Source: Candidatus Magasanikbacteria bacterium RIFOXYD1_FULL_40_23 (lineage in GTDB: Bacteria; Patescibacteriota; Patescibacteriia; Magasanikbacterales; GWA2-37-8). From it: a DNA stretch of 64,000 bases. Under the pieces are notes generated by a model that saw only the letters and a program-made list of their open reading frames with translations, had not been told where the DNA came from and searched no databases. The DNA lies in the NCBI GenBank assembly GCA_001783215.1, contig MFRA01000005.1, forward strand, positions 254,322 to 318,321. The letters are read 5' to 3'. Shown here one piece after another: positions 3,087 through 61,392 of this stretch. Each line of letters starts with the position of its first letter. Position 1 is the stretch's first letter. The translations under genes and the position numbers were made by a program.

Positions 3087-4187
3087 TTATTTAGCTAGCT
3101 TCCAATTTGGATCGGCTTTTATTTTTTTCCAAGAAGTAAAATCTTTTTGTTTTGCGTGATGGTATCCGGCCACGGCAATCATAGCCCCATTATCCATAGA
3201 GTATTTTAGTTCTGGGAGTTGGAAGCGGGTGTTAGGGAAGTTGGCAGTAATTTCTGATTGTAGAGTTTCGCGCAGTTTTTTGTTGGCGCTTACTCCGCCG
3301 CATAGAATAATTGTTTTTGGTTTGTATTCTGCTGCAGCAGTCATAGTTTTGGCTACCAGCACATCTATAATCGCTTGCTCAAAACTGGCGCAGAAATCAT
3401 TTATATTCAAAGATTCTTTATTGTCACGCAGCCAATAAAGAGCGGAAGTTTTTAGGCCGGAAAAACTAAAATTATAATCTTTGCTGTTAAGCATCGGTCT
3501 AGGGAATTTTATTGCTTCGGTGTTGCCAGTTAGTGCAAGTTTAGAAATTTGCGGTCCGCCAGGGTAGGGTAGTCCGATTAATTTTGCACCTTTATCAAAA
3601 CATTCTCCGGCCGCATCGTCTATGGTAGCGCCAAGCAGTTTGTATTTGCCGTGATCTTTCATAATAATAAGTTCGGTGTGTCCGCCGCTTACCACCAAAC
3701 ATAGAGCTGGAAATTGTAAATCCGTTTTGTCATTCTGAGGCGCAGACGAAGAATCCCTTTTGTCCGACCGAGAGGGATCCTTCACTCTGTTCAGGATGAC
3801 AGTGTCGTAGTTTTTTATTTGGGTAGAATAAATATGTCCTTCTATATGGTTTGTAGAAACCAAAGGCAGGTCTGTTATATAAGACAGTGTGCGGGCAGCT
3901 TCTACACCTACCAATAATCCAGTGATAAGTCCTGGTCCAGAAGTAACAGCTACAGCGTCTGGTTTTGGTTGATTTTCTAACACCGCTTCTATAAGCGGTA
4001 CAATTTTTTCGGCATGCATACGGCCGGCAATTTCTGGAACTACGCCGCCATATTTTTTGTGTACATCAATTTGAGAAGCGGTTTTTTCGGACAAAATAAA
4101 ACAGCCTTTATCGGAGCAGTCTAGCAAGGCTACGGAAGTGTCATCACAAGATGATTCAATACCGAGTATTCGCATATTTATAACCAA
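3087..4187 (-). CDS. tsaD: tRNA N6-adenosine threonylcarbamoyltransferase TsaD (Kae1/Gcp family). Likely true start is the second Met (MRILGIESSCDD, about 4175). Carries an in-frame ~26-aa insertion from a palindromic repeat.
   Basis: MRILGIESSCDDTSVAL, HIEGH, VSGGHTELI and DNGAMIA motifs. Relative to E. coli TsaD (recalled from memory), the HIEGH-to-VSGGH spacing is ~26 aa longer, and that stretch coincides with the repeat at 3728-3801. Confidence 0.88.
   Translation of the reverse strand: MVINMRILGIESSCDDTSVALLDCSDKGCFILSEKTASQIDVHKKYGGVVPEIAGRMHAEKIVPLIEAVLENQPKPDAVAVTSGPGLITGLLVGVEAARTLSYITDLPLVSTNHIEGHIYSTQIKNYDTVILNRVKDPSRSDKRDSSSAPQNDKTDLQFPALCLVVSGGHTELIIMKDHGKYKLLGATIDDAAGECFDKGAKLIGLPYPGGPQISKLALTGNTEAIKFPRPMLNSKDYNFSFSGLKTSALYWLRDNKESLNINDFCASFEQAIIDVLVAKTMTAAAEYKPKTIILCGGVSANKKLRETLQSEITANFPNTRFQLPELKYSMDNGAMIAVAGYHHAKQKDFTSWKKIKADPNWKLAK
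3728..3801. repeat. Family-A palindromic element, copy 1, in frame inside tsaD (encodes ...NRVKDPSRSDKRDSSSAPQNDKTD...)
   Basis: tgtcattctgaggcgcagacgaagaatcccttttgtccgaccgagagggatccttcactctgttcaggatgaca. The ends gtcattctga / tcaggatgac are inverted repeats with a central GGATCC. Matches copies at 14967, 51288, 52651, 59991 and 60612. Confidence 0.85.
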
Positions 4188-4440
4188 GTTTGTCTAGGAT
4201 ATGTGCAAGTTGAATTTTTAATTCAGAGTGTCCCTTACCACCTTTTAGGTATTTTTCTCTTTGTCGAGCATCGTCTTCGTGTAAATATCCTTCGTAATAA
4301 ATTAGACGTATAGGCCTTCTATGTTTAGTTGCTAAAACAAACCCAGATTTATGTTTAAGTATTCTCTTTTTTAAATCGGAAGTAAACCCAATATAAAGTT
4401 TACCATCTTTTTGGCAATACAAAATATATACGTAGTACAT
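4156..4440 (-). CDS. GIY-YIG nuclease family protein (UPF0213-like)
   Basis: YVYILYCQKDGKLYIGFTSDLKKRILKH fits the GIY-YIG pattern Y..Y...DG.LYIG.T.DL.KR...H. 94 aa. Overlaps the annotated tsaD start by ~30 nt. Confidence 0.8.
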   Translation of the reverse strand: MYYVYILYCQKDGKLYIGFTSDLKKRILKHKSGFVLATKHRRPIRLIYYEGYLHEDDARQREKYLKGGKGHSELKIQLAHILDKLGYKYANTRY

Positions 4441-14966: not shown

Positions 14967-15040
14967 TGTCATTCTGAGCAAGGCGAAGAATCTCTTTCGT
15001 TTGGATGTAAAGGGATCCTTCATTACATTCAGGATGACAA
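14967..15040. repeat. Family-A palindromic element, copy 2 (intergenic)
   Basis: tgtcattctgagcaaggcgaagaatctctttcgtttggatgtaaagggatccttcattacattcaggatgacaa. Confidence 0.85.
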
Positions 15041-15046
15041 AAACGT

Positions 15047-15499
15047 ATGAAAAAAATATTACCAGTGTTTGTCGTTTTGTTAGTATTAGTAGGTGGAGGA
15101 TCTTTTTATGGAGGTATGAAGTATTCTGATAGTAAAAGAGTCTCAAGGTTTTCTGCCGATATGGCTGGGGGCGGTAATTTTCGTGCCGGCAATATAATGG
15201 GCGGTGGTGCGCCGCGTAGTACTGGAATGGCTGGAGGGAATGCCAGAGGAGTTGGTTTTGCAACCGGAGAAATTCTATCTAAAGACGATAGTAGTTTAAC
15301 TATAAAATTGCGTGATGGGGGCTCTCAGATAATTTTCTTTTCCACATCTACTCAAATTATGAAGTCATCTGCTGGATCAATGGGGGATTTAATAGTTGGA
15401 GAAAGTATTACAGTAAATGGTAGTACTAACCAAGATGGAAGTGTAACCGCGCAAAGCATTCAGTTACGTCCGGATATCGCTACATCTTCTATAAGGTAA
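15047..15499 (+). CDS. Gly-rich secreted/membrane-anchored hypothetical protein
   Basis: Signal/TM MKKILPVFVVLLVLVGGGSF, then Gly-rich GGGNFRAGNIMGGGAPRSTGMAGGNARG. Confidence 0.45.
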   Translation: MKKILPVFVVLLVLVGGGSFYGGMKYSDSKRVSRFSADMAGGGNFRAGNIMGGGAPRSTGMAGGNARGVGFATGEILSKDDSSLTIKLRDGGSQIIFFSTSTQIMKSSAGSMGDLIVGESITVNGSTNQDGSVTAQSIQLRPDIATSSIR

Positions 15500-23002: not shown

Positions 23003-23085
23003 TATATAGGGGCTAAAGCCACATATATGCTCATTCACTCAGAAATAAATAAGTTTACTTATTTATTTCTTCATTCATTTCGCAT
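23003..23085 (+). repeat. Family-C leader module, copy 1, ending at the start codon of the 23086 gene
   Basis: tatataggggctaaagccacatatatgctcattcactca + palindrome gaaataaataag-ttt-acttatttatttc + ttcattcatttcgcat + ATG. Confidence 0.75.
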
Positions 23086-23496
23086 ATGAAAGAATTTTTT
23101 GTTAGCTTATTTGTAATTATATTTGTAGCAGCGGTAGTTGTGTTTGGAGTTTTTCCTCCGAAGGTTTATGTTACATTTATTTCTGCGCAGAATAGTGTCT
23201 TGGCTGCAGAGCAAAAACAAATTACAGATGCTTTGCTTTGGCAATATAGTTATAATCCTTTGCGAGTAGGGCGAGAGTACCAGATAAATATGCCTAGCCC
23301 CGCACCCTTGAAAAATCCGGCAAAACAAGATTACCAATATTTTATTTGGGCAAGTGTAAAATCCCTATCTTTTGTAAAAGAATCAGAAGCAGGGGATAAT
23401 ACTTGGAATTTGGTTTTGGCAAAAGATAAAAATGGCAACTGGAAAATTGTAGCTGACAAGCTTTGTTGCGGGCAAGGGGTTGATGAATGGTATTAA
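23086..23496 (+). CDS. Hypothetical membrane-anchored protein
   Basis: N-terminal TM FFVSLFVIIFVAAVVVFGVF. 136 aa. Confidence 0.5.
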   Translation: MKEFFVSLFVIIFVAAVVVFGVFPPKVYVTFISAQNSVLAAEQKQITDALLWQYSYNPLRVGREYQINMPSPAPLKNPAKQDYQYFIWASVKSLSFVKESEAGDNTWNLVLAKDKNGNWKIVADKLCCGQGVDEWY

Positions 23497-23568: not shown

Positions 23569-23844
23569 TTATTTTAGAGCGTCTTTTAGAGCCTTGCCAG
23601 CTTTGAATTTTGGTACGGTAACAGCTGGGATTTGGATTTTTTGAGAAGGGTTTTGTGGGTTTACGCCTTGTCTAGCGGCGCGCTTCTTGGCTGTAAAAGC
23701 TCCAAAACCGGTTAAAACTACCTCTCCATCTTTCTTTAATTGTTCTACGACAGTGTCAAGGACGGCGTTTAAGGTGTCTTCAACTTGGCGTTTTGGTAGG
23801 TTTAGTTTTTCGGATACAGCTTGTGCTAAATCTGCTTTATTCAT
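23569..23844 (-). CDS. hup: DNA-binding protein HU
   Basis: MNKADLAQAVSEKLNLPKRQVEDTLNAVLDTVVEQLKKDGEVVLTGFGAF...RQGVNPQNPSQKIQIPA. Canonical HU/IHF fold signature (GFGxF, R-N-P). Confidence 0.9.
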   Translation of the reverse strand: MNKADLAQAVSEKLNLPKRQVEDTLNAVLDTVVEQLKKDGEVVLTGFGAFTAKKRAARQGVNPQNPSQKIQIPAVTVPKFKAGKALKDALK

Positions 23845-23966: not shown

Positions 23967-24003
23967 CCAACGCTTAGCGTTGGTATGGGGACGCTAAGCG
24001 TCC
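23967..24003. repeat. Twin ACGCTTAGCGT-core palindromes, second locus (ccaACGCTTAGCGTtgg ... ggACGCTAAGCGTcc)
   Basis: Same architecture as 4468-4505, with flanking nucleotides changed in a way that keeps complementarity. Lies between the rny stop and the hup start. Confidence 0.7.
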
Positions 24004-24010
24004 ACCAAGA

Positions 24011-25543
24011 TTACTTAGCGTATTCTACTACGCGAGTTTCGCGAATAATAGTAACACGGATTTCACCAGGGTATTGAAGTTCTTGTTCAATTTTGCGAGA
24101 GATATCTTTGGCCAATTGGAAAGCAGAATAATCGTCTACTTCATTTGGTTTTACAAACACGCGTACTTCGCGACCAGCTTGGATTGCATATACTTTATCA
24201 ATTCCAGGGAAGCTCTTGGCGGTTTTTTCTAATTCTTCCAAACGAGCCACGAATTGTTCATAGCTGTCTTTGCGAGCGCCAACTCTGGCGCCAGAGATGG
24301 CGTCGGCAGCTTTGGCAATAGAAGAATAGATATTGTAAGGTTTGTCTTGGTGGTGAGTAAGAGCTGCTTGGCAGATATCTTCGTCCATGTTGAACTTTTT
24401 CAAGATCATATGGCCAATCTCTGGGTGAGAGCCTTGAGTCTCTTGGTCCACAGCTTTACCAATATCGTGGAAGAAGCCACATTTTTTGGCCTTAGCTGCA
24501 TCAAGTCCTAGTTCGCTAGCAATCATACCGGCCAAGTAGCCAGTCTCCATAGAGTGGAGAATAATATTTTGTCCGTAGCTAGTGCGGTATTTTAATCTAC
24601 CAACAATACTTACTAATTTTGGATCAATGCCGGTAATGCCCATTTTATAAAGGGCTTCCTCACCAGCTTTTTTGATATCCACTGCCAAATCTTGTTTGGC
24701 TTTTTCTACAAACTCTTCGATGCGAGCTGGTTGAATGCGGCCATCAGCCATTAATTTTTCTAGCGCCAGCTTGGCAATTTGTCGGCGGATAGGGGAGAAT
24801 CCAGATACTACGATAGCGTCTGGGGTGTCGTCGATAATAAGTTCACAACCAGTTAGCTTTTCAATTGTTTTAATGTTGCGTCCTTCTTTACCGATAATGC
24901 GGCCCTTCATGTCTTCGCTAGTTAGCTGTACGGTGGTGGAAGTGATTTCGGCAGCATGAGAAGAAGCACAGCGCTGTACTGCGTCGGCAATAAGTTCGCG
25001 AGCTTTTTCTTCGTAAACTTCTATTGATTCTTTGTCTAGTTTCAAAACTCTAGCCATCAAATCGGCTTTGCTTTGTTGTTCAATTCTTTTTAGAAGCTCT
25101 TCTTTGGCCTCTTCTTTTTTCATTGTTGCAATCTGTTGCAATTTTTCTACCTCTTGCTCCTTCATTTGTTCTATCTCTGTTTTTATATGTTGGATCTGGT
25201 CTGCTTTTTCTTGTAGTTTTTGTTTGCTACCTTCTAGTTCAATCAATTTTTGATCAAACAAAGCCTCGCGTCTTTCTAGTCTTTCTTGGGCATTGTGAAG
25301 ATCTTGGCGAACGGTTTTTTCTTCACGCTTAGCTTCGTCTACTATTTGAGTAGCTTTTTCTTTGCCCTGTAGGATTATTTCTTGTTGTTTTGTTTTTGCT
25401 TCAACAAGAAGACTCTCTGCTTTGGCTTCGATAGAGTTGGCTTGGGCTTGAGCCAATTTTTTCCTTAAGAAGTATCCAACGCTTGTGCCGAGTCCGGCGC
25501 CAGCTACTACCAGGATTGCCCAGATAAAGTTTGACATATACAA
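24011..25543 (-). CDS. rny: Ribonuclease Y
   Basis: N-terminal TM, long coiled-coil, KH domain (GRIIGKEGRNIKTIE), HD domain (HSMETGYLAGMIASELG...FFHDIGKA). Confidence 0.9.
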   Translation of the reverse strand: MYMSNFIWAILVVAGAGLGTSVGYFLRKKLAQAQANSIEAKAESLLVEAKTKQQEIILQGKEKATQIVDEAKREEKTVRQDLHNAQERLERREALFDQKLIELEGSKQKLQEKADQIQHIKTEIEQMKEQEVEKLQQIATMKKEEAKEELLKRIEQQSKADLMARVLKLDKESIEVYEEKARELIADAVQRCASSHAAEITSTTVQLTSEDMKGRIIGKEGRNIKTIEKLTGCELIIDDTPDAIVVSGFSPIRRQIAKLALEKLMADGRIQPARIEEFVEKAKQDLAVDIKKAGEEALYKMGITGIDPKLVSIVGRLKYRTSYGQNIILHSMETGYLAGMIASELGLDAAKAKKCGFFHDIGKAVDQETQGSHPEIGHMILKKFNMDEDICQAALTHHQDKPYNIYSSIAKAADAISGARVGARKDSYEQFVARLEELEKTAKSFPGIDKVYAIQAGREVRVFVKPNEVDDYSAFQLAKDISRKIEQELQYPGEIRVTIIRETRVVEYAK

Positions 25544-26070: not shown

Positions 26071-26740
26071 ATGATTTGAAATTATCTAAATTAATAGCAT
26101 TTTTTAGTAAGTATTTGCCAATTTTTGTACGCATTAATTCTTGGCAATAAGCGCCAGTTTCTAACTTTGCGCCTATATCGTGAGCCAATGTGCGAATGTA
26201 GGTTCCTGCCGAACATTGTACTTCAATTTTTAAAATAGGCCAAGAGTATTCTAAAAGCTTAATTTTATAAATTTCTATTTCGTTTGCTTTTCTTTCTACA
26301 GTTATTCCTTTTCTAGCCAACTGGTATAGTCTTTGTCCGTCTACCCATTTGGCAGAAAACATTGGCGGAGTTTGTAGTTGTTTGCCAATAAAAGTTTTAA
26401 GTAGGCTTTTTATTTGTTTTTTGTCTGGTTGAATCATGCTGTGTGTATCATGCATCGTGATCTGTCCGGTTTTATCATCAGTATCACTTGTGGCTCCAAG
26501 TTTAATAGTAGCAATATACGTTTTGGGCATGTTTTTAAACCCGTCCAGTTTTTTGGTAGCTTCTCGGCCAACACCTACGATAAGCAGTCCGGTGGCAAAC
26601 GGATCCAGAGTGCCGGCATGACCAACCTTTACCCTTTTTTGTTTGTCGGGTAGGGGGGTCTTTTTAACACGGTTGCGTACAAAAGCTACAACATCAAAAC
26701 TGCTCCAGCCTTCGGGTTTGTTAATTAATAGGTAGTTCAT
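26051..26740 (-). CDS. truB: tRNA pseudouridine(55) synthase TruB
   Basis: INKPEGWSSFDVVAFVR...KVGHAGTLDPFATGLLIVGVGREATK, with the catalytic Asp in GTLDP. Confidence 0.9.
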   Translation of the reverse strand: MNYLLINKPEGWSSFDVVAFVRNRVKKTPLPDKQKRVKVGHAGTLDPFATGLLIVGVGREATKKLDGFKNMPKTYIATIKLGATSDTDDKTGQITMHDTHSMIQPDKKQIKSLLKTFIGKQLQTPPMFSAKWVDGQRLYQLARKGITVERKANEIEIYKIKLLEYSWPILKIEVQCSAGTYIRTLAHDIGAKLETGAYCQELMRTKIGKYLLKNAINLDNFKSYDEQSR

Positions 26741-26826
26741 AAACGAAATGAGTGAGCAAAGTAATAAGCCTGCTTAATTACTTTCGAGCGAATGAGTATA
26801 TATGCAGCTTTAGCCCATATATAGTA
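26741..26826 (-). repeat. Family-C leader module, copy 2, ending at the truB start codon (minus-strand orientation)
   Basis: Minus-strand read tatatgggctaaagctgcatatatactcattcgctc + palindrome gaaagtaattaagc-agg-cttattactttg + ctcactcatttcgttt + ATG(truB). Confidence 0.75.
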
Positions 26827-28972: not shown

Positions 28973-29365
28973 ATGAATTATGAGGCTAGAAAAATTAACA
29001 GCTTTGTTGATTTGAATGCTTGGCAGGAAGGGCATAAATTGGTTTTAGAAATTTATGAAATTACTAAAAAATTTCCCTCGGCAGAAAATTTTGGTTTGAC
29101 AAGTCAGATGCAGCGAAGTGCGGTATCTATAACTTCAAATATTGCAGAGGGTTTTGGCAGACAAACATATAAAGACAAAACACATTTTTATTTTATCTCG
29201 GCCGGTTCTTTAACAGAACTGCATAATCAAGTTATTATTTCCAAGGATTTAAAGTATATAACAATAGAAAAGTTCGGTGTTATAGGTGGTCAGATAATAA
29301 AGGTTCAAAAAATACTTAACGGCTTAATAAAAAGTTCAAAGTCTCGCATTATTCATAATTCCTAA
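28973..29365 (+). CDS. Four-helix-bundle protein (23S rRNA intervening-sequence protein family)
   Basis: AWQEGHKLVLEIY...FGLTSQMQRSAVSITSNIAEGFGR...ELHNQVIIS, the hallmark of the PF05635/TIGR02436 family. Confidence 0.8.
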   Translation: MNYEARKINSFVDLNAWQEGHKLVLEIYEITKKFPSAENFGLTSQMQRSAVSITSNIAEGFGRQTYKDKTHFYFISAGSLTELHNQVIISKDLKYITIEKFGVIGGQIIKVQKILNGLIKSSKSRIIHNS

Positions 29366-43189: not shown

Positions 43190-43416
43190 TATAGGGGCTA
43201 AAGCCCGCGGCGCGCTCACTCATTTCGATTATATGGGCTAAAGCCACATATATACTCATTCGCTCATAAATAATTTCATTAGAAAATAATTGAGCAAGCT
43301 CATTATTTTCTCACTCATTATTTAACTCACTCACTTCGTATATATAGTTAAACATATATTTTCACTCACTCGGAAATAAATAAGCAAGCTCATTTATTTC
43401 CTCATTCATTTCAAAT
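43190..43416 (+). repeat. Family-C leader module, copy 3 (tandem, with an extra truncated head), ending at the start codon of the 43417 response regulator
   Basis: ataggggctaaagcc-cgcggcgcg-ctcactcatttcg, then tatatgggctaaagccacatatatactcattcgctca ... palindrome ggaaataaat-aagcaagctc-atttatttcc + tcattcatttcaaat + ATG. Numerous TCACTCA/TCATTCA reiterations. Confidence 0.75.
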
Positions 43417-43788
43417 ATGAAAAAAATTCTTATAGTAGAGGACGAATTGGCGTTATTGTATGCTTTAGCATCTCAGTTTGATAAAAAAGAATTTAAAGTT
43501 CTTCAGGCTGTGGATGGCGAAGAAGGCTTAAAAACTGCCCTAAAGTCACATCCGGATTTAATTTTATTGGACTTGCTTATGCCGAAAATGGATGGCATGT
43601 CTATGTTAAAAGAATTGCGCAAGGATTCTTGGGGTAAGGGTGTAAAAGTAATAATTTTAACCAACCTAAGTGATGCAGAAAAAATTGATGAAGCGTTAAA
43701 GCAGGGGACATATGATTATTTAGTAAAAAAAGATTGGAACATTTCCGAAGTAATTGAAAAAGTGAAAGCTAGTCTGGGTATGAAATAG
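43417..43788 (+). CDS. Single-domain response regulator (CheY-like receiver)
   Basis: KILIVEDE...LLDLLMPKMDGMSMLKELR...KVIILTNL...YDYLVKK. Confidence 0.85.
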   Translation: MKKILIVEDELALLYALASQFDKKEFKVLQAVDGEEGLKTALKSHPDLILLDLLMPKMDGMSMLKELRKDSWGKGVKVIILTNLSDAEKIDEALKQGTYDYLVKKDWNISEVIEKVKASLGMK

Positions 43789-43792
43789 TGGT

Positions 43793-45400
43793 ATGCTGTT
43801 GTGGTTGGAAAAGATAAAAAGCGCCATGCTTCAATGGGTAATTGCGTGGCATGACTTCGTTAAATCAAAAAATAAAATGCTTATTGCGTTTTGTTTTTGT
43901 TTTATAGTGGGTGCCGGCGTATTCTCTCTTTTAGAAAATAATGGATCCTTATTTTATTTGTATCTTTTGTTATTCATCATTCTGTTTTTTGTAATAATTT
44001 TTTGGCATAAAAAATATATAAGATTTTTGTGTCTATGTCTGCTGTTTTTTATATTGGGGGCGTGTAGATTTTTGATCAGTATCCCAGAAAAAAATTTTGC
44101 GAGAGTGGAATTCTATAATGGAGAAAAGAAGGTGTTGCGAGGGTTTGTATCCAGTGAGCCGGATATTGGGTTAAGTGATGCCAGGTATGTTGTGCGGGTG
44201 GAGAGTGTAAAAGAAGATCAAAACTCTAAATCCGTGTCTGGCAATATTTCTGTTAAAACCAGGATTTATCCCGAATATAAATATGGCGACACGCTAGAAA
44301 TAGAATGTTTATTGCAAGAGCCAGCCAATTTTACCACCGCCTCAGCGGGGTCCCGCCTCATGGCGGCGAAAGATAGTAAATTCAATTATATAAAGTATCT
44401 AGCCAAACAGGGTGTGTGGTCGATTTGCAGTAATCCGAATATAAAAAATTTGGACGAAAATAAAGGTAATATTTTGGTAAGCTTTATGTTAAAAATAAAA
44501 AGTAAAATAAAAGTTCAAATAGCCAGTCTGTGGCCGGAGCCGAACAGTAGCCTAATGGCCGGGTTGCTCTATGGCAGTCGTAGTGGCTTGCCGCAAGAGT
44601 TGGTAGATAATTTTAGTCGTACGGGAGTTAGTCATATTGTGGCTGTGTCCGGATACAATGTTAGTATAATTGCCGTGGCTTTAAATATCATTTTAATTTA
44701 TGCGGGTTTGTTTAGGCGGCAATCTTTTTGGTTTTTAATATCTTTAATTTTGGCGTTTGTATTTTTTACCGGAGCCACTGCTTCGGTGGTGCGAGCGGGA
44801 ATAATGGCTATAATTATTTTGGCTGCCCAACATATCGGCCGGATGTCGGCGGTAGGCAGAGCGCTAGTTTATGCAGCTGTTGTCATGTTAGTTCTTAATC
44901 CGTATTTGTTAGTTTGGGACGCTGGTTTCCAGCTTTCTTTTTTATCTACACTCGGATTGGTTTATCTTTCTCCGATTATTCAATATTTTGTCGATAGTAA
45001 ATTTAAAATCGAAAGTAATTTATGGAAGTCGGCTTTAGAAGTTTTTATTACTACAATTTCTGCGATTTTGGTCACTTTGCCGCTTATCATGTATCAGTTT
45101 GGTAGATTTTCTGTTGTTGCACCGCTAGTTAATATTTTAATTTTGTGGATTGTGCCATGGCTTATGTTGTTTGGGTTCATATCTTTGGTTTTTAGTTTTA
45201 TATTTTTCCCAGTTGGGCAGCTGGTTGCTTGGGGCACAGACCTGGGAGTTAGGTATGTTATAATGGTAGTGGATTGGTTTGGAAGCAAGAGTTGGAGTGC
45301 CTTTAATTTGCGAATTTCTTTGCCGACAATGGTTGTTATTTACCTAGTATTAATCTTATTTATATGGCGAAAAAAGCCAAAGTTTTATCTTCAGAAGTAG
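43793..45400 (+). CDS. comEC: ComEC/Rec2 DNA-internalisation channel (DUF4131 plus competence domain; no MBL domain in this ORF). True start may be MLIAFCF, about 43877.
   Basis: Multi-TM throughout. GVSHIVAVSGYNVSIIA (ComEC SGxH-like block). Family-B repeat copy overlaps the annotated N-terminus. Confidence 0.75.
   Translation: MLLWLEKIKSAMLQWVIAWHDFVKSKNKMLIAFCFCFIVGAGVFSLLENNGSLFYLYLLLFIILFFVIIFWHKKYIRFLCLCLLFFILGACRFLISIPEKNFARVEFYNGEKKVLRGFVSSEPDIGLSDARYVVRVESVKEDQNSKSVSGNISVKTRIYPEYKYGDTLEIECLLQEPANFTTASAGSRLMAAKDSKFNYIKYLAKQGVWSICSNPNIKNLDENKGNILVSFMLKIKSKIKVQIASLWPEPNSSLMAGLLYGSRSGLPQELVDNFSRTGVSHIVAVSGYNVSIIAVALNIILIYAGLFRRQSFWFLISLILAFVFFTGATASVVRAGIMAIIILAAQHIGRMSAVGRALVYAAVVMLVLNPYLLVWDAGFQLSFLSTLGLVYLSPIIQYFVDSKFKIESNLWKSALEVFITTISAILVTLPLIMYQFGRFSVVAPLVNILILWIVPWLMLFGFISLVFSFIFFPVGQLVAWGTDLGVRYVIMVVDWFGSKSWSAFNLRISLPTMVVIYLVLILFIWRKKPKFYLQK
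43818..43872. repeat. Family-B hairpin repeat, copy a (RR-comEC junction)
   Basis: aagcgccatgcttcaatgggtaattgcgtggcatgacttcgttaaatcaaaaaat; the stem gccatgc/gcgtggc is retained. Confidence 0.65.
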
Positions 45401-46014
45401 GCTATAATTTGGCTGCTGATGTTTATGATGAAAATGAAAATTATCTAAATAGTTTTGAGCAAGGAGAGCTTATCCCTTTGCTTGGTGCGTTGGATGGCAA
45501 AAGAGTTTTAGATGTTGGGGCAGGCACGGGCCGGCTATCTTTGCCTTTGGTAAGTAGAGGTGCACACGTTACGGCTCTAGATGTATCGCCTAAAATGTTA
45601 GATTTAATAAAAAAGAAGCAGCGCCGCGTTTCAATGAACGTTACGCGGCATGATTCCGTTGAATCAAAAATTACCACTGTGGTTGGTGATGCGGAAAGTT
45701 TGCCTTTTGAAAATAATACTTTTGATATTGTGACAGCTGCGTTTTTAATTGTACATCTCAAAAATCCGACCAGATTTTTTGACGAAGCGTACAGAGTCTT
45801 AAAAGACGGAGGGATTTTGGTGGTGACCAATATTAATCAGAAGGATCCGCCAACAGTAAAAACAAAAGAGGGAAAAATAATTATAGAATCTTTTTATCAT
45901 CGCCCAGAAAAAGTTGTAGAAATATTAGAATCGTTGGCGTATGGAATTGAAGAAAATGTTTTTGTAAAAGAGGGGAGTCTTTGGGTAGATCAGATTGTGG
46001 TGGCGAGGAAATAA
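45364..46014 (+). CDS. Class I SAM-dependent methyltransferase carrying an in-frame Family-B repeat (~17 aa: QRRVSMNVTRHDSVESK)
   Basis: Motif I VLDVGAGTGRLSL; post-I DVSPKML; motif II/III GDAESLPFENNTFDIV...AFLIVHL. Confidence 0.8.
   Translation: MAKKAKVLSSEVGYNLAADVYDENENYLNSFEQGELIPLLGALDGKRVLDVGAGTGRLSLPLVSRGAHVTALDVSPKMLDLIKKKQRRVSMNVTRHDSVESKITTVVGDAESLPFENNTFDIVTAAFLIVHLKNPTRFFDEAYRVLKDGGILVVTNINQKDPPTVKTKEGKIIIESFYHRPEKVVEILESLAYGIEENVFVKEGSLWVDQIVVARK
45618..45672. repeat. Family-B hairpin repeat, copy b (inside the methyltransferase CDS, in frame)
   Basis: agcagcgccgcgtttcaatgaacgttacgcggcatgattccgttgaatcaaaaatt; stem gccgcgt/acgcggc. Confidence 0.7.
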
Positions 46015-48737: not shown

Positions 48738-48830
48738 TCGGGCTTCAATGGACGCGCCGGCCGCGTTTCAAAGGACGTGACGCGGCATGATTACGTCGAA
48801 TCAATTTCGTTAAATCAAATCTTAAATTTT
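48738..48830. repeat. Family-B hairpin repeat, copy c (nusA-yidC intergenic; partially reiterated)
   Basis: gggcttcaatggacgcgcc + ggccgcgtttcaaaggacgtgacgcggcatgattacgtcgaatcaa + tttcgttaaatcaaatc. Confidence 0.65.
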
Positions 48831-50917: not shown

Positions 50918-52263
50918 TTTTGCAAGAAGTTCAACATGTGTTAGCGTTGTTGTTTTTGTTTTTGCTGCCATGGCAAACCAGATATATTTGGAAGTATGGC
51001 CAATTAAATGGCGGCTATTGGGAGTATGGCACGGGCAGTCTGTATGTAACAGAGATTTTATTGTGGGTTATTTTGGTATTATTTTTTGTTAATAATTTTT
51101 TAAAGAAAGAAGTTTGGGTCGGTTTGTTTAAAAATAAAAATGTTTTTTCTTTGGTGTTCGCTGGGTTTTTAGCTGTGGTGGGCGCATCAGTAATGTTGAG
51201 CGAAAATTTTGGCATCTCCTATAATTATATTTTCCGTATTTTGGAGGGCATGGCCATAATGACGGTGCTGTTTCGGAGCGGGCAGTCTGTCATCCTGAAC
51301 GGAGTGAAGGATCCCTTAAACACAAATGAAAGGGATTCTTCGGTCGCTTTTCTTCCTCAGAATGACAGATATGTAGTTGCTATTTGGCTTGGCGCGGTAG
51401 GGCAGGGAGCGCTGGCGATTTATCAGTTTTTGACCCAGCATGTTTTTGCCAGCAAGTGGCTAGGTATGGCAGCGCAAGAGTCGTACAACTTGGGCCCAAG
51501 CGTAATACAATTTGCTGACCAGAGGTGGTTGCGCGCCTACGGTAGTTTTGGTTCGCCAAATTCTTTGGGGATTTATTTGGCTGTGTTATTTGTATTAGGT
51601 TTTATTTTATATTTTAAAACGCAAATACCGCGCTATAAAATTTTAATTAGCGTAGGTCAATTATTTATTTTATCTGGATTGTTGCTTTCTTTTTCTCGCG
51701 GGGCGTGGTTGGCAGCTTTGGTTGGTCTGGCATCTCTTTTTATTGTTTTATTTTTTAAACAAAAAGATTTTTTACGAGATTTTATAAAACAGATCGTATT
51801 TGCTTTGGGTGTAGCTATATTTTGGATTATTATTTTTTATCCAGTTTTTAACGCCAGATTTAATTTGCAAAATCGTTTGGAAGCCACGTCTGTTTCCGAA
51901 AGAAAAGGGCAGTATAGCGAATCTTTATCTTTTATTAAATTAAATCCAATTTTTGGGGTTGGGCCGGGCGTATATACTTTTGCTTTGGCCAAAAAATATC
52001 CAGATTTAGCTTCGTGGCAGCTGCAGCCAATACATAATATTTATTTACTTATTCTCGTAGAGATGGGCATATTTGGTATGTTGGCTATATTTTTATCAGT
52101 TGCCAGTATTGCTAGACTGATACTTAAAAATAACTTAATTTACGCACCAGTTTTGACGGCTTTGTTTGCTTCTGGAATGCTAGATCATTGGTTGGCCAGC
52201 CTGTTTACAGGCATGGTTTTTTGGTGGGTAGTCTTGGGTTTAGGCCTAAAAAAGAACCCTTGA
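50893..52263 (+). CDS. O-antigen ligase/polymerase-like (Wzy_C-type) polytopic membrane protein carrying an in-frame Family-A repeat
   Basis: About 10-12 TM helices with a periplasmic loop containing RGAWLAALVGL-type Wzy_C features. Inserted peptide VILNGVKDPLNTNERDSSVAFLPQNDRYV. Confidence 0.55.
   Translation: MEKQNRGLILQEVQHVLALLFLFLLPWQTRYIWKYGQLNGGYWEYGTGSLYVTEILLWVILVLFFVNNFLKKEVWVGLFKNKNVFSLVFAGFLAVVGASVMLSENFGISYNYIFRILEGMAIMTVLFRSGQSVILNGVKDPLNTNERDSSVAFLPQNDRYVVAIWLGAVGQGALAIYQFLTQHVFASKWLGMAAQESYNLGPSVIQFADQRWLRAYGSFGSPNSLGIYLAVLFVLGFILYFKTQIPRYKILISVGQLFILSGLLLSFSRGAWLAALVGLASLFIVLFFKQKDFLRDFIKQIVFALGVAIFWIIIFYPVFNARFNLQNRLEATSVSERKGQYSESLSFIKLNPIFGVGPGVYTFALAKKYPDLASWQLQPIHNIYLLILVEMGIFGMLAIFLSVASIARLILKNNLIYAPVLTALFASGMLDHWLASLFTGMVFWWVVLGLGLKKNP
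51288..51368. repeat. Family-A palindromic element, copy 3 (in frame in the Wzy-like gene)
   Basis: tgtcatcctgaacggagtgaaggatcccttaaacacaaatgaaagggattcttcggtcgcttttcttcctcagaatgacag. Confidence 0.85.
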
Positions 52264-52357: not shown

Positions 52358-52642
52358 ATGCAACTTAAGCCCTTAGGAGACAATGTTTTGGTCAAGCAAA
52401 TTAAAGCCGATGAAGTTACTTCTTTCGGTTTGGTTTTGCCAGATAAAGATGAAAAGAAAGCCGAGGCCGAAGTGGTAGCTATTGGCCCGGGCAAATTATT
52501 GGAAAATGGCCAACGAAGTGTGATGGAAGTAAAAGTAGGCGATAAAGTATTATTAAAAAATTGGGGTGGAGAAAAGGTAGAGCTAGATAAACAGGAGTAT
52601 AAAATTGTTTCTCAGGATGACATTTTGGCAATATTTGGATAA
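52358..52642 (+). CDS. groES: Co-chaperonin GroES
   Basis: MQLKPLGDNVLVKQ...EVVAIGPG...VKVGDKVL. 94 aa. Confidence 0.95.
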   Translation: MQLKPLGDNVLVKQIKADEVTSFGLVLPDKDEKKAEAEVVAIGPGKLLENGQRSVMEVKVGDKVLLKNWGGEKVELDKQEYKIVSQDDILAIFG

Positions 52643-52650
52643 ATTTAAAC

Positions 52651-52747
52651 TGTCATTCCGAATCCCTTTTGTGGGGTGAGGAATCTTTGTCCATATTGTT
52701 GTTAAGTACAGAGATCCCTCGTCGCTACGGCTCGCTCGGGATGACAA
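52651..52747. repeat. Family-A-related palindromic element, variant copy (groES-groEL intergenic)
   Basis: tgtcattccgaatccc...gatccctcgtcgctacggctcgctcgggatgacaa. Terminal inverted repeats tgtcatYccg and the central gatcc are retained. Confidence 0.7.
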
Positions 52748-58509: not shown

Positions 58510-59739
58510 ATGCTTGGTGATAGAAAAAGTAAGTTAGAAAAGAATTTCTTCAAAATTTTTTTCATTAACGCCCTTCTTAATGTAAAGATGATAAATATTG
58601 TTATCTCTTTATTTTATGTTTACCGTAGTTTGCGAGTGGCAGATATTTTTTATTTAGGAGTTGTGTATTCGGCTACGGTAATACTAAGCGAGGTGCCATC
58701 AAGTTATTTGGCCGATAGATTTGGCAGAAAACGCACTATTATTATGGCCGCATTTTTTGGTCTTCTGCACTGGGTATTTTTTTTAACCGCAAATTCCTTT
58801 TTTCTATTTGCAATCGGCATAGTGTTTTATGCGCTGGCCGAATCTTGTATGAGCGGTACGGACGAAGCTTTTGTTTATGATACCAACAAAGAACTTAATA
58901 ACCAGTCTCAGTCATTACAAAAATTAAGTCGCTATTTTTCTTCCGAAAGATTTTTCAAAATATTTTCTGCGTTTTTGGGCGCTATTATTGCCAAAGATTT
59001 ACTGGATTGGCAATTTAACTCAATTATTATGGTAGATATGGTAGCGTCTGTGGTAGCTATTATCTTTGCCTTTACATTACTCGAGCCGAATCATTTTATG
59101 GATGTAGAAAAGCAGGAGGCTGGATTGATAAAGGATGCTTATAAAATTTTATCCAGAGACAAAACACTTATGTTTAGCGTACTTAATAAGCTGCTTGTGC
59201 TTATTGGCGCTCACTTGTGTTGGGCCTATGCCACGGTTTTCTTTGTTGATAACTTAAGCATATCTGTTGTAACTATGGGTATAGTTTGGAGCGTGTATCA
59301 TTTCTTGGTGTTGGGCGCCAGTCATTTTTTGCATTCTTTATGGCCAAATCATTCCGAAACAGTTAAGATTAATATGCTAAGCGCCGTTGTTTCGGCGGCT
59401 TTGGGGATGTTTCTTTTCAGTTGGTTCTTTTTCCCATATAAGTATATCCTTTTAGCGTTTTATCTTATAGTAGAATTCACTGCTTCTATAAGACAGCCTA
59501 TTTTTTCCAATATTTTTAATAAGCAATTCTTCTCCTATAATAGAGCTACCACCTTATCTATGGCCAATTTTGTCCAGCATGTATTTCAGATCCCGTTACT
59601 GCTGCTCACGGGCTGGCTTGTCGGTATAAATATTATTTTTCCGTATGTAGTTGCTTTATTCCTAGCGCTTGCCGCAGTTCTTTATTTTAGAATAAATCAA
59701 AAAGAACCTAACAATGTATATGTCTCAAAAACTATTTAA
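58510..59739 (+). CDS. MFS transporter
   Basis: About 11-12 TM helices. ADRFGRKRTII (MFS motif A-like GRKR) between TM2 and TM3. Confidence 0.75.
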   Translation: MLGDRKSKLEKNFFKIFFINALLNVKMINIVISLFYVYRSLRVADIFYLGVVYSATVILSEVPSSYLADRFGRKRTIIMAAFFGLLHWVFFLTANSFFLFAIGIVFYALAESCMSGTDEAFVYDTNKELNNQSQSLQKLSRYFSSERFFKIFSAFLGAIIAKDLLDWQFNSIIMVDMVASVVAIIFAFTLLEPNHFMDVEKQEAGLIKDAYKILSRDKTLMFSVLNKLLVLIGAHLCWAYATVFFVDNLSISVVTMGIVWSVYHFLVLGASHFLHSLWPNHSETVKINMLSAVVSAALGMFLFSWFFFPYKYILLAFYLIVEFTASIRQPIFSNIFNKQFFSYNRATTLSMANFVQHVFQIPLLLLTGWLVGINIIFPYVVALFLALAAVLYFRINQKEPNNVYVSKTI

Positions 59740-60622
59740 TGAAGATTATCTAAAGCATCTTTGCCAAAAATACAGCCTTACCCCGTCCAAAAAATATGGG
59801 CAGAATTATTTGGTAAATCCAGAGCCGATAGAAAAAATGGTAAATGCAGCAGAAATTAAAAAAGACGATGTGGTAGTAGAAGTGGGTCCGGGATTTGGCG
59901 TTCTTACGTTAGCTTTGGCAGAAAAGGCAAAAAAGGTAATTTCATTTGAAATTGAAAAAAAATTGACGACCTACTGGAAAAATATTACAGGTCATCCTGA
60001 ACGGAGTGAAGGATCCCTCTTGGCGAACGAAAGGGATTCTTCGGCAGAGCCTCAGAATGACAAATACAAGAATATAGAAATAGTTTGGGGAAATATATTA
60101 TACGAATTTAAAGGTGATGGATTAAAAGCGGGGGAGTACAAAGTAGTAGCCAATTTACCATACCAAATTACTTCGCATGTAATTAGGAAATTTTTGGAAA
60201 TGGAAAACAATCCAGATATGCTGGTGCTTATGGTGCAAAAAGAGGTAGCCGAAAGAATTTGTGCGCAAGCAGGTGATATGTCTGTTTTGGCGGTATCTGT
60301 TCAATATTATGGCAAGCCAGAGATTGTCACTTTTGTGCCACGTTCATCTTTTTGGCCAATGCCGGCGGTGGATTCGGCAGTAATAAAGATAAAAATAAAT
60401 AAAGATAATGCAGGTGCTAAAAATAATAGCGAATCTTTTTTCAAGCTTGTAAAAGCTGGTTTTTCTAGTCGTAGAAAAATGCTTATCAAAAATCTAAGCG
60501 CGGTAGCGGACAGGCAAGCTCTACGCAACCTATTTAAAGAACTGGGTATAGACGAAAAGGTGCGAGCGCAAGAATTAAGCGTGGAGCAGTGGAAAGAAAT
60601 AGTTGCCAAATTGTCATTCTGA
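59714..60622 (+). CDS. rsmA: 16S rRNA (adenine1518/1519-N6)-dimethyltransferase RsmA/KsgA. Has an in-frame Family-A repeat, and its last residues plus stop codon come from a second repeat copy.
   Basis: YGQNYLVNPE, VVEVGPGFGVLTLAL, NLPYQITS. Inserted peptide GHPERSEGSLLANERDSSAEPQNDKYKN. C-terminal ...KLSF-TGA lies inside ttgtcattctga. Confidence 0.85.
   Translation: MYMSQKLFNEDYLKHLCQKYSLTPSKKYGQNYLVNPEPIEKMVNAAEIKKDDVVVEVGPGFGVLTLALAEKAKKVISFEIEKKLTTYWKNITGHPERSEGSLLANERDSSAEPQNDKYKNIEIVWGNILYEFKGDGLKAGEYKVVANLPYQITSHVIRKFLEMENNPDMLVLMVQKEVAERICAQAGDMSVLAVSVQYYGKPEIVTFVPRSSFWPMPAVDSAVIKIKINKDNAGAKNNSESFFKLVKAGFSSRRKMLIKNLSAVADRQALRNLFKELGIDEKVRAQELSVEQWKEIVAKLSF
59991..60062. repeat. Family-A palindromic element, copy 4 (in frame in rsmA)
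   Basis: gtcatcctgaacggagtgaaggatccctcttggcgaacgaaagggattcttcggcagagcctcagaatgaca. Confidence 0.85.
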
Positions 60623-60684
60623 AAGAAGTGGGAGAGCTCCTTTTAAAGTTTAAGGGATCCTTCGCTGCTGTGGCGGCTCAGGAT
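60612..60684. repeat. Family-A palindromic element, copy 5 (partial; spans the rsmA stop codon and the downstream hairpin)
   Basis: ttgtcattctgaaagaagtgggagagctccttttaaagtttaagggatccttcgctgctgtggcggctcaggatgg, then hairpin ggtttttgc-ttgcgac-agcaaaaacc. Confidence 0.7.
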
Positions 60685-60801
60685 GGTTTTTGCTTGCGAC
60701 AGCAAAAACCACTTATCCCCATTATTTTTTTATTTTGTTTGTGTTATAATATTGGAAGTAAGCAAGTGAAGCAATGAAGCTTATTTTAACCGATAGTTAG
60801 T

Positions 60802-61392
60802 ATGCCAGAGGAGCAAGACGGCGGCGGGTTAAGAAAAGAACAGAAAATGGGGATAGCCCTGCTTTCTATTTTTGCCGTGTTTGCAATCGTCTTGGGTTTC
60901 TTGCAAATTCGCAATACCATGTATGCGCCCTTTGCTCTAAACAATAAAGTTCCTTATGTAGTAAGAGATGAAATAGATACAAACGAAGCACTCATGTATC
61001 GCGATACAGACAAAGACGGGCTTAATGATTTTGATGAGTTGTATGTTTATATTACTAGTCCATATTTGGCAGATACCGACTCCGACGGTCTAGATGATAA
61101 AACAGAAATAGAAAAAGGTACCAGTCCTATTTGTGCGGAAGGGCAAACTTGCTCCGAGCTTGCTGCCAATGAGGACACTTTGTTAAACACTGCTCCGGCA
61201 GATTCGGCAACTTCCACTTTGGGGCCACCGCCTTCTACCGAAGAGCTTGACCAGCTTATAAATAATCCGGCAGAAATCCGCAAGATGTTGCTCGCTTCTG
61301 GTTTTGACAAAAAGATATTGGATCAAACATCCGATGCCGACCTTATGAAAATGGTAAAAGATGTTTTAAATTCTACCAGCACAACCCCTTAA
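60802..61392 (+). CDS. Membrane-anchored hypothetical protein with thrombospondin-type-3-like Asp-rich (Ca-binding-like) repeats
   Basis: TM IALLSIFAVFAIVLGFL. DTDKDGLNDFDE and DTDSDGLDDKTE (DxDxDG loops). Confidence 0.45.
   Translation: MPEEQDGGGLRKEQKMGIALLSIFAVFAIVLGFLQIRNTMYAPFALNNKVPYVVRDEIDTNEALMYRDTDKDGLNDFDELYVYITSPYLADTDSDGLDDKTEIEKGTSPICAEGQTCSELAANEDTLLNTAPADSATSTLGPPPSTEELDQLINNPAEIRKMLLASGFDKKILDQTSDADLMKMVKDVLNSTSTTP

What the first reader, a model, noticed from the sequence alone, without database searches (positions are those of the whole stretch)
59991..60684. rsmA carries one Family-A element in frame and a second copy supplying its C-terminal residues and stop codon
Copy 4 (59991-60062) inserts ~24 aa between the SAM-binding region and the conserved NLPYQITS motif of RsmA/KsgA. 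Copy 5 begins inside the last codons (…aaa ttg tca ttc TGA), so the repeat itself provides the gene's terminal amino acids and stop. It is then followed by a hairpin. A mobile palindrome creating a new C-terminus and terminator is a concrete example of a selfish element reshaping gene ends.
Basis: seen in the sequence. Interest (0 to 1): 0.6.

Follow-up and report, generated by a model that had tools for sequence, protein, structure and literature searches.

The report
Palindromic repeats inside and ending rsmA
A small selfish-looking palindromic DNA repeat sits in frame inside the rRNA methyltransferase gene rsmA of a Candidate Phyla Radiation bacterium, and an older copy overlaps its stop codon; both effects have precedents in Rickettsia and Coxiella, and the protein is barely changed.

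Summary
rsmA (59714-60622) carries a 72-nt palindromic insert (59991-60062) in frame. It adds 24 residues to a disordered surface loop and is absent from the closest orthologs. A second, decayed copy starts inside codon 300 and supplies Ser-Phe-TGA.

Repeat-free orthologs end at the same alignment column, so two residues are swapped rather than a new C-terminus made. The 3' copy is old: four other orthologs start an element at the same junction, and others keep decayed remnants. The downstream hairpin is structurally conserved in orthologs but fails the intrinsic-terminator scan.

Each element is two inverted ~26-nt hairpin units (GTCAT, stem with tandem G·A, GNA triloop, ATCC) around a variable spacer. 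The same unit occurs in at least 120 metagenomic contigs (GC 28-72%). In two of those contigs it directly flanks small GIY-YIG nuclease genes, as published for Ssn/NTS repeats, although it does not match the published SRM pattern.

The closest analogues are Rickettsia palindromic elements (in-frame copies) and Coxiella QMITEs (3'-end overlap). I rate it a new member of a known kind, of moderate interest.

The parts
59714..60622 (+). rsmA/ksgA CDS (16S rRNA A1518/A1519 dimethyltransferase), 302 aa
   Evidence: ORF list. Pfam RrnaAD, E 2.5e-48, residues 26-298. PDB KsgA hits at 1e-42. 100% identical to a Candidatus Magasanikbacteria RsmA.
59991..60062 (+). Family-A copy 4: 72 nt read in frame as aa 93-116 (GHPERSEGSLLANERDSSAEPQND)
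   Evidence: Absent from P0004-P0008 and from L001/L002 DNA. In the AlphaFold2 model it is coil, with 10-residue-block mean pLDDT 51-76, between helix 82-92 and strand 121-125, in a model of mean pLDDT 91.3.
60612..60687 (+). Family-A copy 5, in opposite orientation to copy 4 and decayed. Its first 11 nt overlap the last codons and supply Ser301-Phe302-TGA.
   Evidence: Elements start at the identical junction in L083, L206, L207 and L208, with a decayed form in L085.
60685..60710 (+). Hairpin GGTTTTTGC-TTGCGACA-GCAAAAACC. It begins in the last bases of copy 5 and ends at the conserved ACTTATCCCCAT motif.
   Evidence: The 57-nt stretch holding the hairpin folds at -15.4 kcal/mol, z = -5.0. Hairpins of different sequence sit at the same position in L084, L085, L207 and L208. 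The terminator scan did not call it.
60711..60722 (+). Conserved intergenic motif ACTTATCCCCAT upstream of the next gene (60802-61392). It marks the orthologous right boundary of the insertion.
   Evidence: Present in the window, L001, L002 (TTATCCCCAT), L003 and L083-L085, and as AGTTATCCCCAT in L207/L208.
3729..3800 (-). Family-A copy 1: 72 nt in frame in tsaD (VILNRVKDPSRSDKRDSSSAPQND)
   Evidence: The Pfam TsaD match is split in two. Solved TsaD structures have no counterpart for about 26 residues here.
14968..15038 (+). Family-A copy 2: 71 nt, intergenic, ending 8 nt before the start codon of ORF 15047-15499
   Evidence: z = -4.6.
51289..51366 (+). Family-A copy 3: 78 nt in frame in a Wzy_C/O-antigen-ligase-like membrane protein (aa 133-158)
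52652..52745 (+). Longer variant with the same termini (GTCATTCCGA...TCGGGATGAC): 94 nt between groES and groEL
   Evidence: z = -3.7.
4156..4440 (-). Context only: a 94-aa single-domain GIY-YIG nuclease ORF, 356 nt from copy 1. It is probably NOT the cognate enzyme of Family A.
   Evidence: Pfam GIY-YIG, E 6e-16. The best PDB hit is a UPF0213 protein. In the three homolog loci examined (L209, L219, L227) the gene follows a tRNA gene and ACGCTTAGCGT-type palindromes, with no GTCAT-type repeat arms nearby.

Best explanation
Both sequences belong to a family of ~72-nt imperfect palindromes, with five or six copies in this 64-kb window.

Anatomy. Each element is a doublet of two inverted ~26-nt hairpin units separated by a variable spacer. 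A unit reads GTCAT, then a 7-nt stem containing a tandem G·A mismatch, a GNA triloop, the return stem, then ATCC. This unit is not specific to this organism. It occurs in very diverse bacteria, and in other contigs it directly flanks small GIY-YIG nuclease genes. That puts it in the class of Ssn-associated hairpin repeats (Neisseria NTS/dRS3 type), built like a REPIN or BIME. It most likely spreads as DNA through single-stranded hairpin intermediates. The mobilising enzyme is inferred, not shown.

Copy 4. It landed (or was inherited) in a permissive frame in a disordered surface loop of RsmA. It is simply translated as 24 extra residues, a tolerated passenger like the Rickettsia palindromic elements. 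Two of the three frames of each arm lack stop codons, and the three intragenic copies add 72, 78 and 72 nt.

Copy 5. It is an old insertion read in the third frame, G TCA TTC TGA, so it terminates RsmA at once. It replaced the last two codons and the stop without changing protein length. It has been inherited across Magasanikbacteria, decays by deletion, and leaves variable C-termini where it was lost.

Hairpin. The adjacent hairpin is conserved in structure and probably marks the 3' end of the rsmA transcript, but that is inference.
For: Family and structure: repeat finding and alignment; element folds with z = -3.4 to -4.6.

In-frame status and absence from close orthologs. Disordered loop in an otherwise confident fold.

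Frame logic: frames 0 and 2 of the arms are open and frame 1 contains TGA. Intragenic copies add 72, 78 and 72 nt, while intergenic copies are 71 and 94 nt.

Copy 5 is orthologous across L083, L085, L206, L207 and L208. L084 and L003 keep only the right arm and have new stop codons. The C-terminus falls in the same column in repeat-free orthologs.

Distribution of the arm: at least 120 metagenome contigs, GC 0.28-0.72, with the second terminus found in about a third of copies at element lengths of 46-142 nt. The loop is GNA in 112 of 125 distinct copies. The closing pair is C-G in 117 and T-A in 4.

GIY-YIG link: in L179 (two genes) and L184, GIY-YIG genes are flanked on both sides by these arms. 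The L184 ORF itself ends ...CHPERSEGSH* inside an arm.

Published precedents: Ssn nucleases cut their flanking hairpin repeats as ssDNA, in the arrangement repeat-ssn-repeat (PMC11893778). MITEs overlap gene 3' ends and supply the stop (PMC5896051). RPEs insert in frame (PMC10969869).
Against: The arms do not match the published SRM search pattern: 0 hits in the window.

The only GIY-YIG gene in the window belongs to a different subtype that keeps company with other palindromes. No cognate nuclease has therefore been shown in this genome, and only 64 kb of it was visible.

No target-site duplication, donor copy or transposition intermediate was seen.

The patchy distribution of both rsmA copies on the RsmA tree needs either many independent losses or lateral exchange. 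I could not tell which.

There is no direct evidence that the insert is translated or that transcription ends at the hairpin.
Confidence: 0.7

Rival explanations
1. Classical IS-derived MITE. Family A is a deletion derivative of an insertion sequence and is moved in trans by a DDE transposase that recognises the TGTCAT...ATGACA terminal inverted repeats.
For: The ends are inverted repeats that start TG and end CA in 10 of 11 termini. From my own knowledge, that is typical of DDE elements. Size and copy number fit a MITE.
Against: No target-site duplication flanks any copy. The interior is not conserved between copies, whereas the 26-nt arms are conserved across contigs of 28-72% GC. Each arm is itself a GNA-loop hairpin. 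The arms flank GIY-YIG genes, not transposase genes. No full-length IS with these ends was seen.
Confidence: 0.12
2. KLSF-stop (TTG TCA TTC TGA) is the native RsmA terminus of this group. The repeat only abuts it, or was attracted to it because the native sequence resembles the element's own end.
For: The KLSF ending is scattered over the RsmA tree. L031, a 41%-identical Patescibacteria ortholog, ends NLSF* with TTGTCATTCTGA but has no recognisable element after it.
Against: In L206, L207 and L083 a canonical, complete left arm (GTCATTCTGA-ATGAAAT-GAAGAATC...) starts at exactly that G. An element that lacked its own first 10 nt would be odd. The ten bases match the family terminus exactly. Selection on the coding bases explains why only they survive in L031.
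Confidence: 0.12
3. Exaptation, which is compatible with the main explanation. Copy 5 and the following hairpin are kept because they act in the rsmA mRNA. Possible roles are a 3'-end or terminator structure, protection from exonucleases, or a brake on termination of translation, since the stop codon lies inside the stem.
For: The right arm and a hairpin at a fixed position persist in orthologs of only 60-70% protein identity. The stems differ in sequence (TTTTTGC/GCAAAAA, TTCGCC/GGCGAA, CTCGCGC/GCGCG, CTCGCC/GGCGAG). From my own knowledge, REP hairpins stabilise upstream mRNA, and REPs close to stop codons reduce translation in E. coli (Liang, Rudd and Deutscher 2015).
Against: No U-tract follows the stem, and the terminator scan is negative. 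The closest relatives L001 and L002 have lost the element and the hairpin and keep the same downstream promoter-like region. The left arm of copy 5 has decayed and the element no longer folds better than shuffles.
Confidence: 0.3
4. The in-frame copy is removed before the protein is made or matures, behaving like an intron or intein, so RsmA is unaltered.
For: The element forms a strong RNA hairpin (-31 kcal/mol, z = -4.0), which would bring its two ends together.
Against: There is no Rfam match. All intragenic copies keep an open frame and add a multiple of 3 nt, while the intergenic copies do not. Excision would not require that. No intein motifs are present. Dozens of orthologs carry diverged, partly deleted in-frame remnants such as VQDDK, which only makes sense if they are translated.
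Confidence: 0.03

Closest known systems
Rickettsia palindromic elements (RPE; Ogata et al. 2000 Science and 2002 Genome Res, as summarised in PMC10969869)
   Same: Both are short palindromic repeats present in many copies and inserted in frame into unrelated housekeeping genes. Both are translated as extra peptide in positions compatible with the fold, and both are absent from orthologs.
   Different: Family A is about 72 nt against roughly 100-150 nt for RPEs. No sequence relation was tested or seen. The host is a CPR bacterium. Family A is built from two conserved hairpin units around a free spacer. The same units occur across many phyla.
Coxiella burnetii QMITE1/QMITE2 (PMC5896051)
   Same: These MITE copies overlap the 3' ends of functional genes by 1-50 bp. 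[quoted passage not shown] That is exactly the situation of copy 5.
   Different: The sequence family and host are different. Here the overlap is old and shared by several orthologs, and a structurally conserved hairpin follows it.
Ssn-related motifs: Neisseria NTS/dRS3 repeats and Ssn GIY-YIG ssDNA nucleases (PMC11893778)
   Same: The unit has the same layout: GTCAT head, roughly 7-bp stem, short loop, then (A)TC. Copy number is high and the units are often in inverted pairs. They directly flank small single-domain GIY-YIG genes (L179, L184). True NTS-like units (GTCATTCCCGC...GCGGGAATGAC) lie nested beside Family A in L084 and L085.
   Different: Family-A arms fail the published SRM search pattern. 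The stem has tandem G·A pairs and a GNA triloop instead of a G+C-rich perfect stem. Half of the copies here are intragenic. No cleavage data exist, and no cognate nuclease was identified in this window.
REP / BIME / REPIN elements mobilised by RAYT transposases
   Same: Both are imperfect palindromic units of 20-40 nt arranged as inverted doublets with a variable spacer, which fold into long hairpins. Both sit close to gene ends.
   Different: There is no GTAG or CGTC head and no RAYT gene was seen. Copies are not confined to extragenic DNA. The unit is conserved across phyla instead of being species-specific.

Membership tests
RPE-like protein-coding palindromic repeat | Multi-copy palindromic element in one genome | tested here: met
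   Five or six copies in 64 kb. The terminal 10-mer occurs 15 times against 4.5 expected.
RPE-like protein-coding palindromic repeat | Inserted in frame in unrelated conserved genes and absent from orthologs | tested here: met
   Copies lie in tsaD, a Wzy_C gene and rsmA. The rsmA insert is absent from P0004-P0008 and from L001/L002. Solved TsaD structures have no counterpart for the tsaD insert.
RPE-like protein-coding palindromic repeat | Insert lies at the protein surface and leaves the fold intact | tested here: met
   In the AlphaFold2 model (mean pLDDT 91.3), residues 93-115 are coil with block-mean pLDDT 51-76, and the flanking helix and strand are confident.
RPE-like protein-coding palindromic repeat | Sequence homology to Rickettsia RPE families | not tested
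Size and host differ.
RPE-like protein-coding palindromic repeat | Insert present in mRNA and protein | not testable with these tools
   This needs metatranscriptome or metaproteome data.
MITE (IS-derived) | Terminal inverted repeats | tested here: met
   The ends read TGTCATYCTGA...TCAGRATGACA.
MITE (IS-derived) | Target-site duplication flanking the element | tested here: not met
   No direct repeats flank any of the six copies.
MITE (IS-derived) | Parent IS with the same ends and a transposase | tested here: inconclusive
   None turned up in the window or among the fetched loci, but no dedicated search for an IS with these ends was run. Only 64 kb of this genome was available.
Ssn-related motif (SRM/NTS) repeats | Match to the published pattern HGTCWYN(0-2)YYVSBRHN(0-5)WNVSBRGN(0-2)RNCYNB | tested here: not met
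   0 matches in the window; shuffled sequence gave a mean of 0.12.
Ssn-related motif (SRM/NTS) repeats | Oriented head (GTCAT) followed by a hairpin-forming semi-palindrome of 20-50 nt | tested here: met
   The unit is GTCAT-CCTGAAC-GNA-GTGAAGG-ATCC. The loop is GNA in 112 of 125 copies, and the closing pair switches between C-G and T-A. ViennaRNA with DNA parameters scores this hairpin weakly (-1.6 kcal/mol, no better than shuffles). I attribute that to unmodelled G·A pairs and GNA-loop bonuses, which is my own interpretation.
Ssn-related motif (SRM/NTS) repeats | Repeats flank a small single-domain GIY-YIG (ssn) gene on both sides | tested here: met
   This holds for L179 (two genes) and L184. 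The L179-type protein has Tyr, Tyr+11 and Glu+58, the same spacing as the Y6/Y17/E64 residues mutated in N. meningitidis SsnA (my residue count from the sequence against PMC11893778).
Ssn-related motif (SRM/NTS) repeats | Cognate ssn gene in the same genome | tested here: inconclusive
   The window's GIY-YIG (4156-4440) is a different subtype tied to tRNA genes and ACGCTTAGCGT palindromes. An L179-type homolog does exist in at least one Patescibacteria MAG (P0306). The rest of this genome was not visible.
Ssn-related motif (SRM/NTS) repeats | Cleaved by the nuclease as ssDNA only | not testable with these tools
   This is a biochemical assay.
REP/BIME/REPIN | GTAG or CGTC head and an associated RAYT (Y1 transposase) | tested here: not met
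   The head is GTCAT. No Y1 transposase was found among the 26 window ORFs scanned with Pfam. The scan was not exhaustive.
Intrinsic (Rho-independent) terminator, for the hairpin 60685-60710 | G+C-rich stem followed directly by a U-run | tested here: not met
   The scan did not call it. The stem is A/T-rich and the T-run starts about 13 nt downstream.

The most novel reading that the evidence does not exclude
The GTCAT/GNA-triloop hairpin unit may be the recognition site of a pan-bacterial clade of Ssn-type GIY-YIG ssDNA nucleases that also acts as the mobilising enzyme. That would be a transposase-free, REPIN-like mobile system able to colonise coding sequence in CPR bacteria. On this reading, the copy at the rsmA stop codon and its hairpin have been domesticated as a conserved 3'-end or translation-termination signal across Magasanikbacteria.
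Probability: 0.15. Interest if true: 0.7.

Novelty: new member of a known kind. Interest (0 to 1): 0.4.

Why it matters
The finding extends the Rickettsia phenomenon of selfish palindromes inside protein-coding genes to the Candidate Phyla Radiation. Unexplained insertions in conserved proteins are common there and complicate annotation and phylogeny.

It shows that a repeat-derived stop codon can be inherited across a group of orthologs down to about 60% RsmA identity. When the repeat is lost, the C-terminus varies from lineage to lineage.

It also ties these elements to the recently described Ssn nuclease and hairpin-repeat class. That gives a testable candidate for how they move and what they do to recombination.

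For RsmA itself the consequence is probably small: a floppy 24-residue loop and two changed terminal residues.

Tried and rejected
- Rfam on the region (E up to 1) and on the whole window at gathering thresholds found only two tRNAs and no RNA family for the repeat.
- The published SRM pattern gave 0 hits.
- I looked for target-site duplications by eye on six copies and found none.
- The terminator and promoter scans gave nothing at the hairpin.
- Literature searches for the terminal 11-mers and for encoded peptides (HPERSEGS, CHSERSEES, VILNEVKD and others) returned only unrelated primer hits or nothing. No paper linked CPR to these repeats.
- The window's own GIY-YIG as the cognate enzyme of Family A: rejected as unlikely. 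The three homolog loci examined in CPR (L209, L219, L227) show a tRNA gene, then ACGCTTAGCGT-like palindromes, then the GIY-YIG gene, with no GTCAT arms.
- NCBIfam gave no specific family for either GIY-YIG type.
- The genome-contig scan with the RsmA alignment returned mostly distant relatives and was of limited use. It did contribute L003, L031 and L044.
- Orthology of copy 4 with the L084 insert could not be settled. It shares site, orientation and subfamily, but the spacer similarity is also shared by non-orthologous copies in the window.
- The DNA of P0011 (which ends KLSF) could not be fetched.
Full report
**Where the window comes from.** The RsmA protein encoded at 59714-60622 is 100% identical to a database entry from a Candidatus Magasanikbacteria MAG (Candidate Phyla Radiation/Patescibacteria). 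It matches Pfam RrnaAD over residues 26-298 of 302 and solved KsgA structures at E about 1e-42.

- Copy 4 (59991-60062) is read in frame as GHPERSEGSLLANERDSSAEPQND (aa 93-116). It lies between the GPGFG SAM motif and ANLPYQITS.
- Copy 5 begins at 60613, so the gene ends AAA TTG TCA TTC TGA. The repeat provides Ser301, Phe302 and the stop.
- The family is real. Similar elements lie at 3729-3800, 14968-15038 and 51289-51366, with a longer variant at 52652-52745.
- The terminal 10-mer occurs 15 times against 4.5 expected by chance.
- The intact copies fold far better than shuffled sequence, z = -3.4 to -4.6.
- Copy 5 is decayed. Its left inner arm is mutated, its right end is GGATGG, and its fold has z = -0.5.

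**Copy 4 is an insertion into a permissive loop.**
- The closest RsmA orthologs (P0004-P0008; 73-82% identity by local BLASTP) are 276-279 aa. They have seven ordinary residues where the window has 6 + 24. DNA of two of them (L001, L002) shows no trace of the repeat.
- An AlphaFold2 model built on 84 orthologs has mean pLDDT 91.3. Residues 93-115 are coil, with block-mean pLDDT of 51-76, between helix 82-92 and strand 121-125.
- The other two intragenic copies behave the same way. One adds 24 residues after the NHIEGH motif of TsaD, with no counterpart in solved TsaD structures. The other adds 26 residues to a Wzy_C membrane protein.
- Intragenic copies add 72, 78 and 72 nt. The intergenic ones are 71 and 94 nt.
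- In each arm, two frames are open (VILN.VKDP and HPERSEGSL). The third frame reads SS*/SF*. Copy 5 is simply a copy read in that third frame.

**The same RsmA loop is occupied in other lineages.**
- Repeat-derived peptides of several subfamilies occupy this loop in other orthologs: P0017, P0032, P0036, P0043, P0050, P0054, P0055, and the Saccharibacteria locus L044.
- Short remnants such as VQDDK occur in P0056, P0060 and P0090.
- Some orthologs carry two or three in-frame elements; P0017 is 358 aa and P0055 is 376 aa.
- I cannot say whether this reflects a targeting preference or only survival in the few tolerant loops.

**Copy 5 changes very little and is old.**
- Repeat-free orthologs end in the same alignment column (P0004 ...SKLKI*).
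- The insertion is not private to this genome. RsmA proteins ending KLSF are scattered over the ortholog tree.
- In every such ortholog whose DNA I could read (L083, L206, L207, L208), a Family-A element starts at the same junction in the same orientation. L206's contig ends inside its element. L085 has a decayed left arm (TCG CCC TGA) with an NTS-like element nested inside.
- L084 and L003 retain only the right arm and use new stop codons.
- L031, only 41% identical, ends NLSF* with TTGTCATTCTGA but nothing recognisable after it.
- The nearest relatives of the window (L001, L002) have lost the element, and their C-termini differ from each other (KLKI, RSIE).
- At codon level the window is closest to L001, L002 and L085 everywhere except around the two repeats.
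- The simplest reading is one old insertion followed by repeated deletion, each deletion recruiting a new stop. Recurrent insertion or allele exchange is not excluded.

**The hairpin.**
- GGTTTTTGC-TTGCGACA-GCAAAAACC (60685-60710) starts in the last bases of copy 5 and ends at a conserved motif, ACTTATCCCCAT. The 57-nt stretch containing it folds at -15.4 kcal/mol, z = -5.0.
- L084, L085, L207 and L208 have hairpins at the same position with different stem sequences. That argues for a conserved structure.
- It is not a canonical intrinsic terminator. The stem is A/T-rich, the T-run begins about 13 nt later, and the scan does not call it.
- L001 and L002 lack both the element and the hairpin.
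- A terminator, mRNA-stabilising or translation-braking role is plausible but unproven.

**What the element is.**
- The copies share the two roughly 26-nt arms but not the spacer.
In the roughly one third of copies where the second terminus was found within 200 nt, element lengths ran from 46 to 142 nt.
- Each arm can itself fold: CCTGAAC / GTGAAGG with tandem G·A pairs around a three-base loop. That loop is GNA in 112 of 125 distinct copies. The closing pair is C-G in 117 and T-A in 4. From my own knowledge, GNA triloops closed by C-G are classic stable single-strand DNA mini-hairpins. ViennaRNA's DNA parameters do not rate this arm hairpin above shuffles.
- This architecture, two inverted self-folding units with a free spacer, resembles REPIN/BIME elements more than an IS-derived MITE. 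No target-site duplications are present.

**The link to Ssn nucleases.**
- A 2025 paper (PMC11893778) shows that small single-domain GIY-YIG proteins (the Ssn family) cut ssDNA at hairpin repeats that flank their own genes. Examples are NTS, CGTCATTCCCGCGMAVGCGGGAATCYRG, and other 'SRM' motifs.
- Family-A arms share that layout (GTCAT head, 7-bp stem, short loop, ATC) but fail the published SRM pattern (0 hits).
- In two of the metagenomic contigs found through the arm, GIY-YIG genes are flanked on both sides, directly or within about 150 nt, by Family-A arms. These are L179 (Bacteroidota, two genes) and L184. The L184 gene itself ends in an arm (...CHPERSEGSH*).
- Homologs of this nuclease type occur in many phyla, including a Patescibacteria MAG.
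- The window also encodes a 94-aa GIY-YIG protein (4156-4440, minus strand), 356 nt from copy 1. In the three homolog loci examined from other CPR genomes, the gene follows a tRNA gene and ACGCTTAGCGT-type palindromes, with no GTCAT arms nearby. It is therefore probably the partner of a different repeat, found in the window at 4471-4502 and 23970-24001.
- The enzyme that moves or acts on Family A in this genome remains unidentified.

**Comparison with known systems.**
- In-frame palindromes are the hallmark of Rickettsia RPEs (PMC10969869).
- MITEs that overlap the last bases of functional genes and supply residues and the stop, without changing protein size, are documented for Coxiella QMITEs (PMC5896051).
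- Rfam has no family for the element, and I found no paper describing these repeats in CPR.
- The finding is therefore a new member of a known kind. It has two less ordinary aspects: the long inheritance of a repeat-derived stop codon, and the apparent kinship with Ssn-associated hairpin repeats.

**Verdict.** The effect on RsmA is small. Interest is moderate (0.4).

Noticed in passing
window 4156-4440 (-), with 4471-4502 and tRNA 4505-4578: A 94-aa single-domain GIY-YIG nuclease ORF sits directly after a tRNA gene and an ACGCTTAGCGT...ACGCTAAGCGT palindrome, and overlaps the start of tsaD. The same order (tRNA, CTNAGC-type palindromes, GIY-YIG gene) recurs in other CPR genomes (L209, L219, L227). 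That suggests a second nuclease and hairpin-repeat pair.
   Followed up: partly
window 23970-24001 and 4471-4502: Two copies of a 32-nt palindromic unit (ACGCTTAGCGT-N10-ACGCTAAGCGT), reported as inverted repeat I7. The second copy lies between the HU gene (23569-23844) and ORF 24011-25543.
   Followed up: no
window 23003-23100, 26736-26823, 43190-43431: Another repeat family (TATAGGGGCTAAAGCC...ACATATATGCTCATTCACTCAGAAATAAATAAG; D1, D3, I1, I2) lies in intergenic regions. A similar string (GAGCGAACGAGAATATATGTGGCAAAGCCCATG) occurs downstream of rsmA in L002.
   Followed up: no
L085 about 2440-2505; L084 about 2580-2650: Neisseria NTS/dRS3-like elements (GTCATTCCCGCCAAAGCGGGAATCCAG ... GGGAATGAC) lie nested inside or next to the Family-A copy at the rsmA 3' end. 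The RsmA ortholog P0054 ends ...VIPAKAGIQKDK, the peptide signature of that repeat.
   Followed up: partly
L184 6345-6791: A GIY-YIG nuclease gene whose own C-terminus (CHPERSEGSH*) and stop codon come from a Family-A arm. This is the same trick as at the end of rsmA, applied to the putative partner enzyme.
   Followed up: partly
P0017 (L084), P0055 (L003), P0036, P0050: RsmA orthologs of 343-376 aa carry two or three separate repeat-derived in-frame inserts: after the YW helix, after GNVL, and in the linker before the C-terminal domain.
   Followed up: partly
window 28973-29365: An ORF matches the 23S rRNA-intervening-sequence protein family (PF05635, E 1.5e-36), next to a thioredoxin gene.
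   Followed up: no
window 43824-43868, 45623-45667, 48760-48804: Three copies of a 45-nt direct repeat (GCCGCGTTTCAATGAACGTTACGCGGCATGATTCCGTTGAATCAA; family D2). Two copies are 89% alike, and the third is only 60% like the reference. Its nature is unexplored.
   Followed up: no
window 52612-52621: A match to the repeat terminus (TCAGGATGAC) inside the end of groES is native coding sequence (...SQDDILAIFG*), not a repeat copy. This is a caution for motif-only counting.
   Followed up: yes
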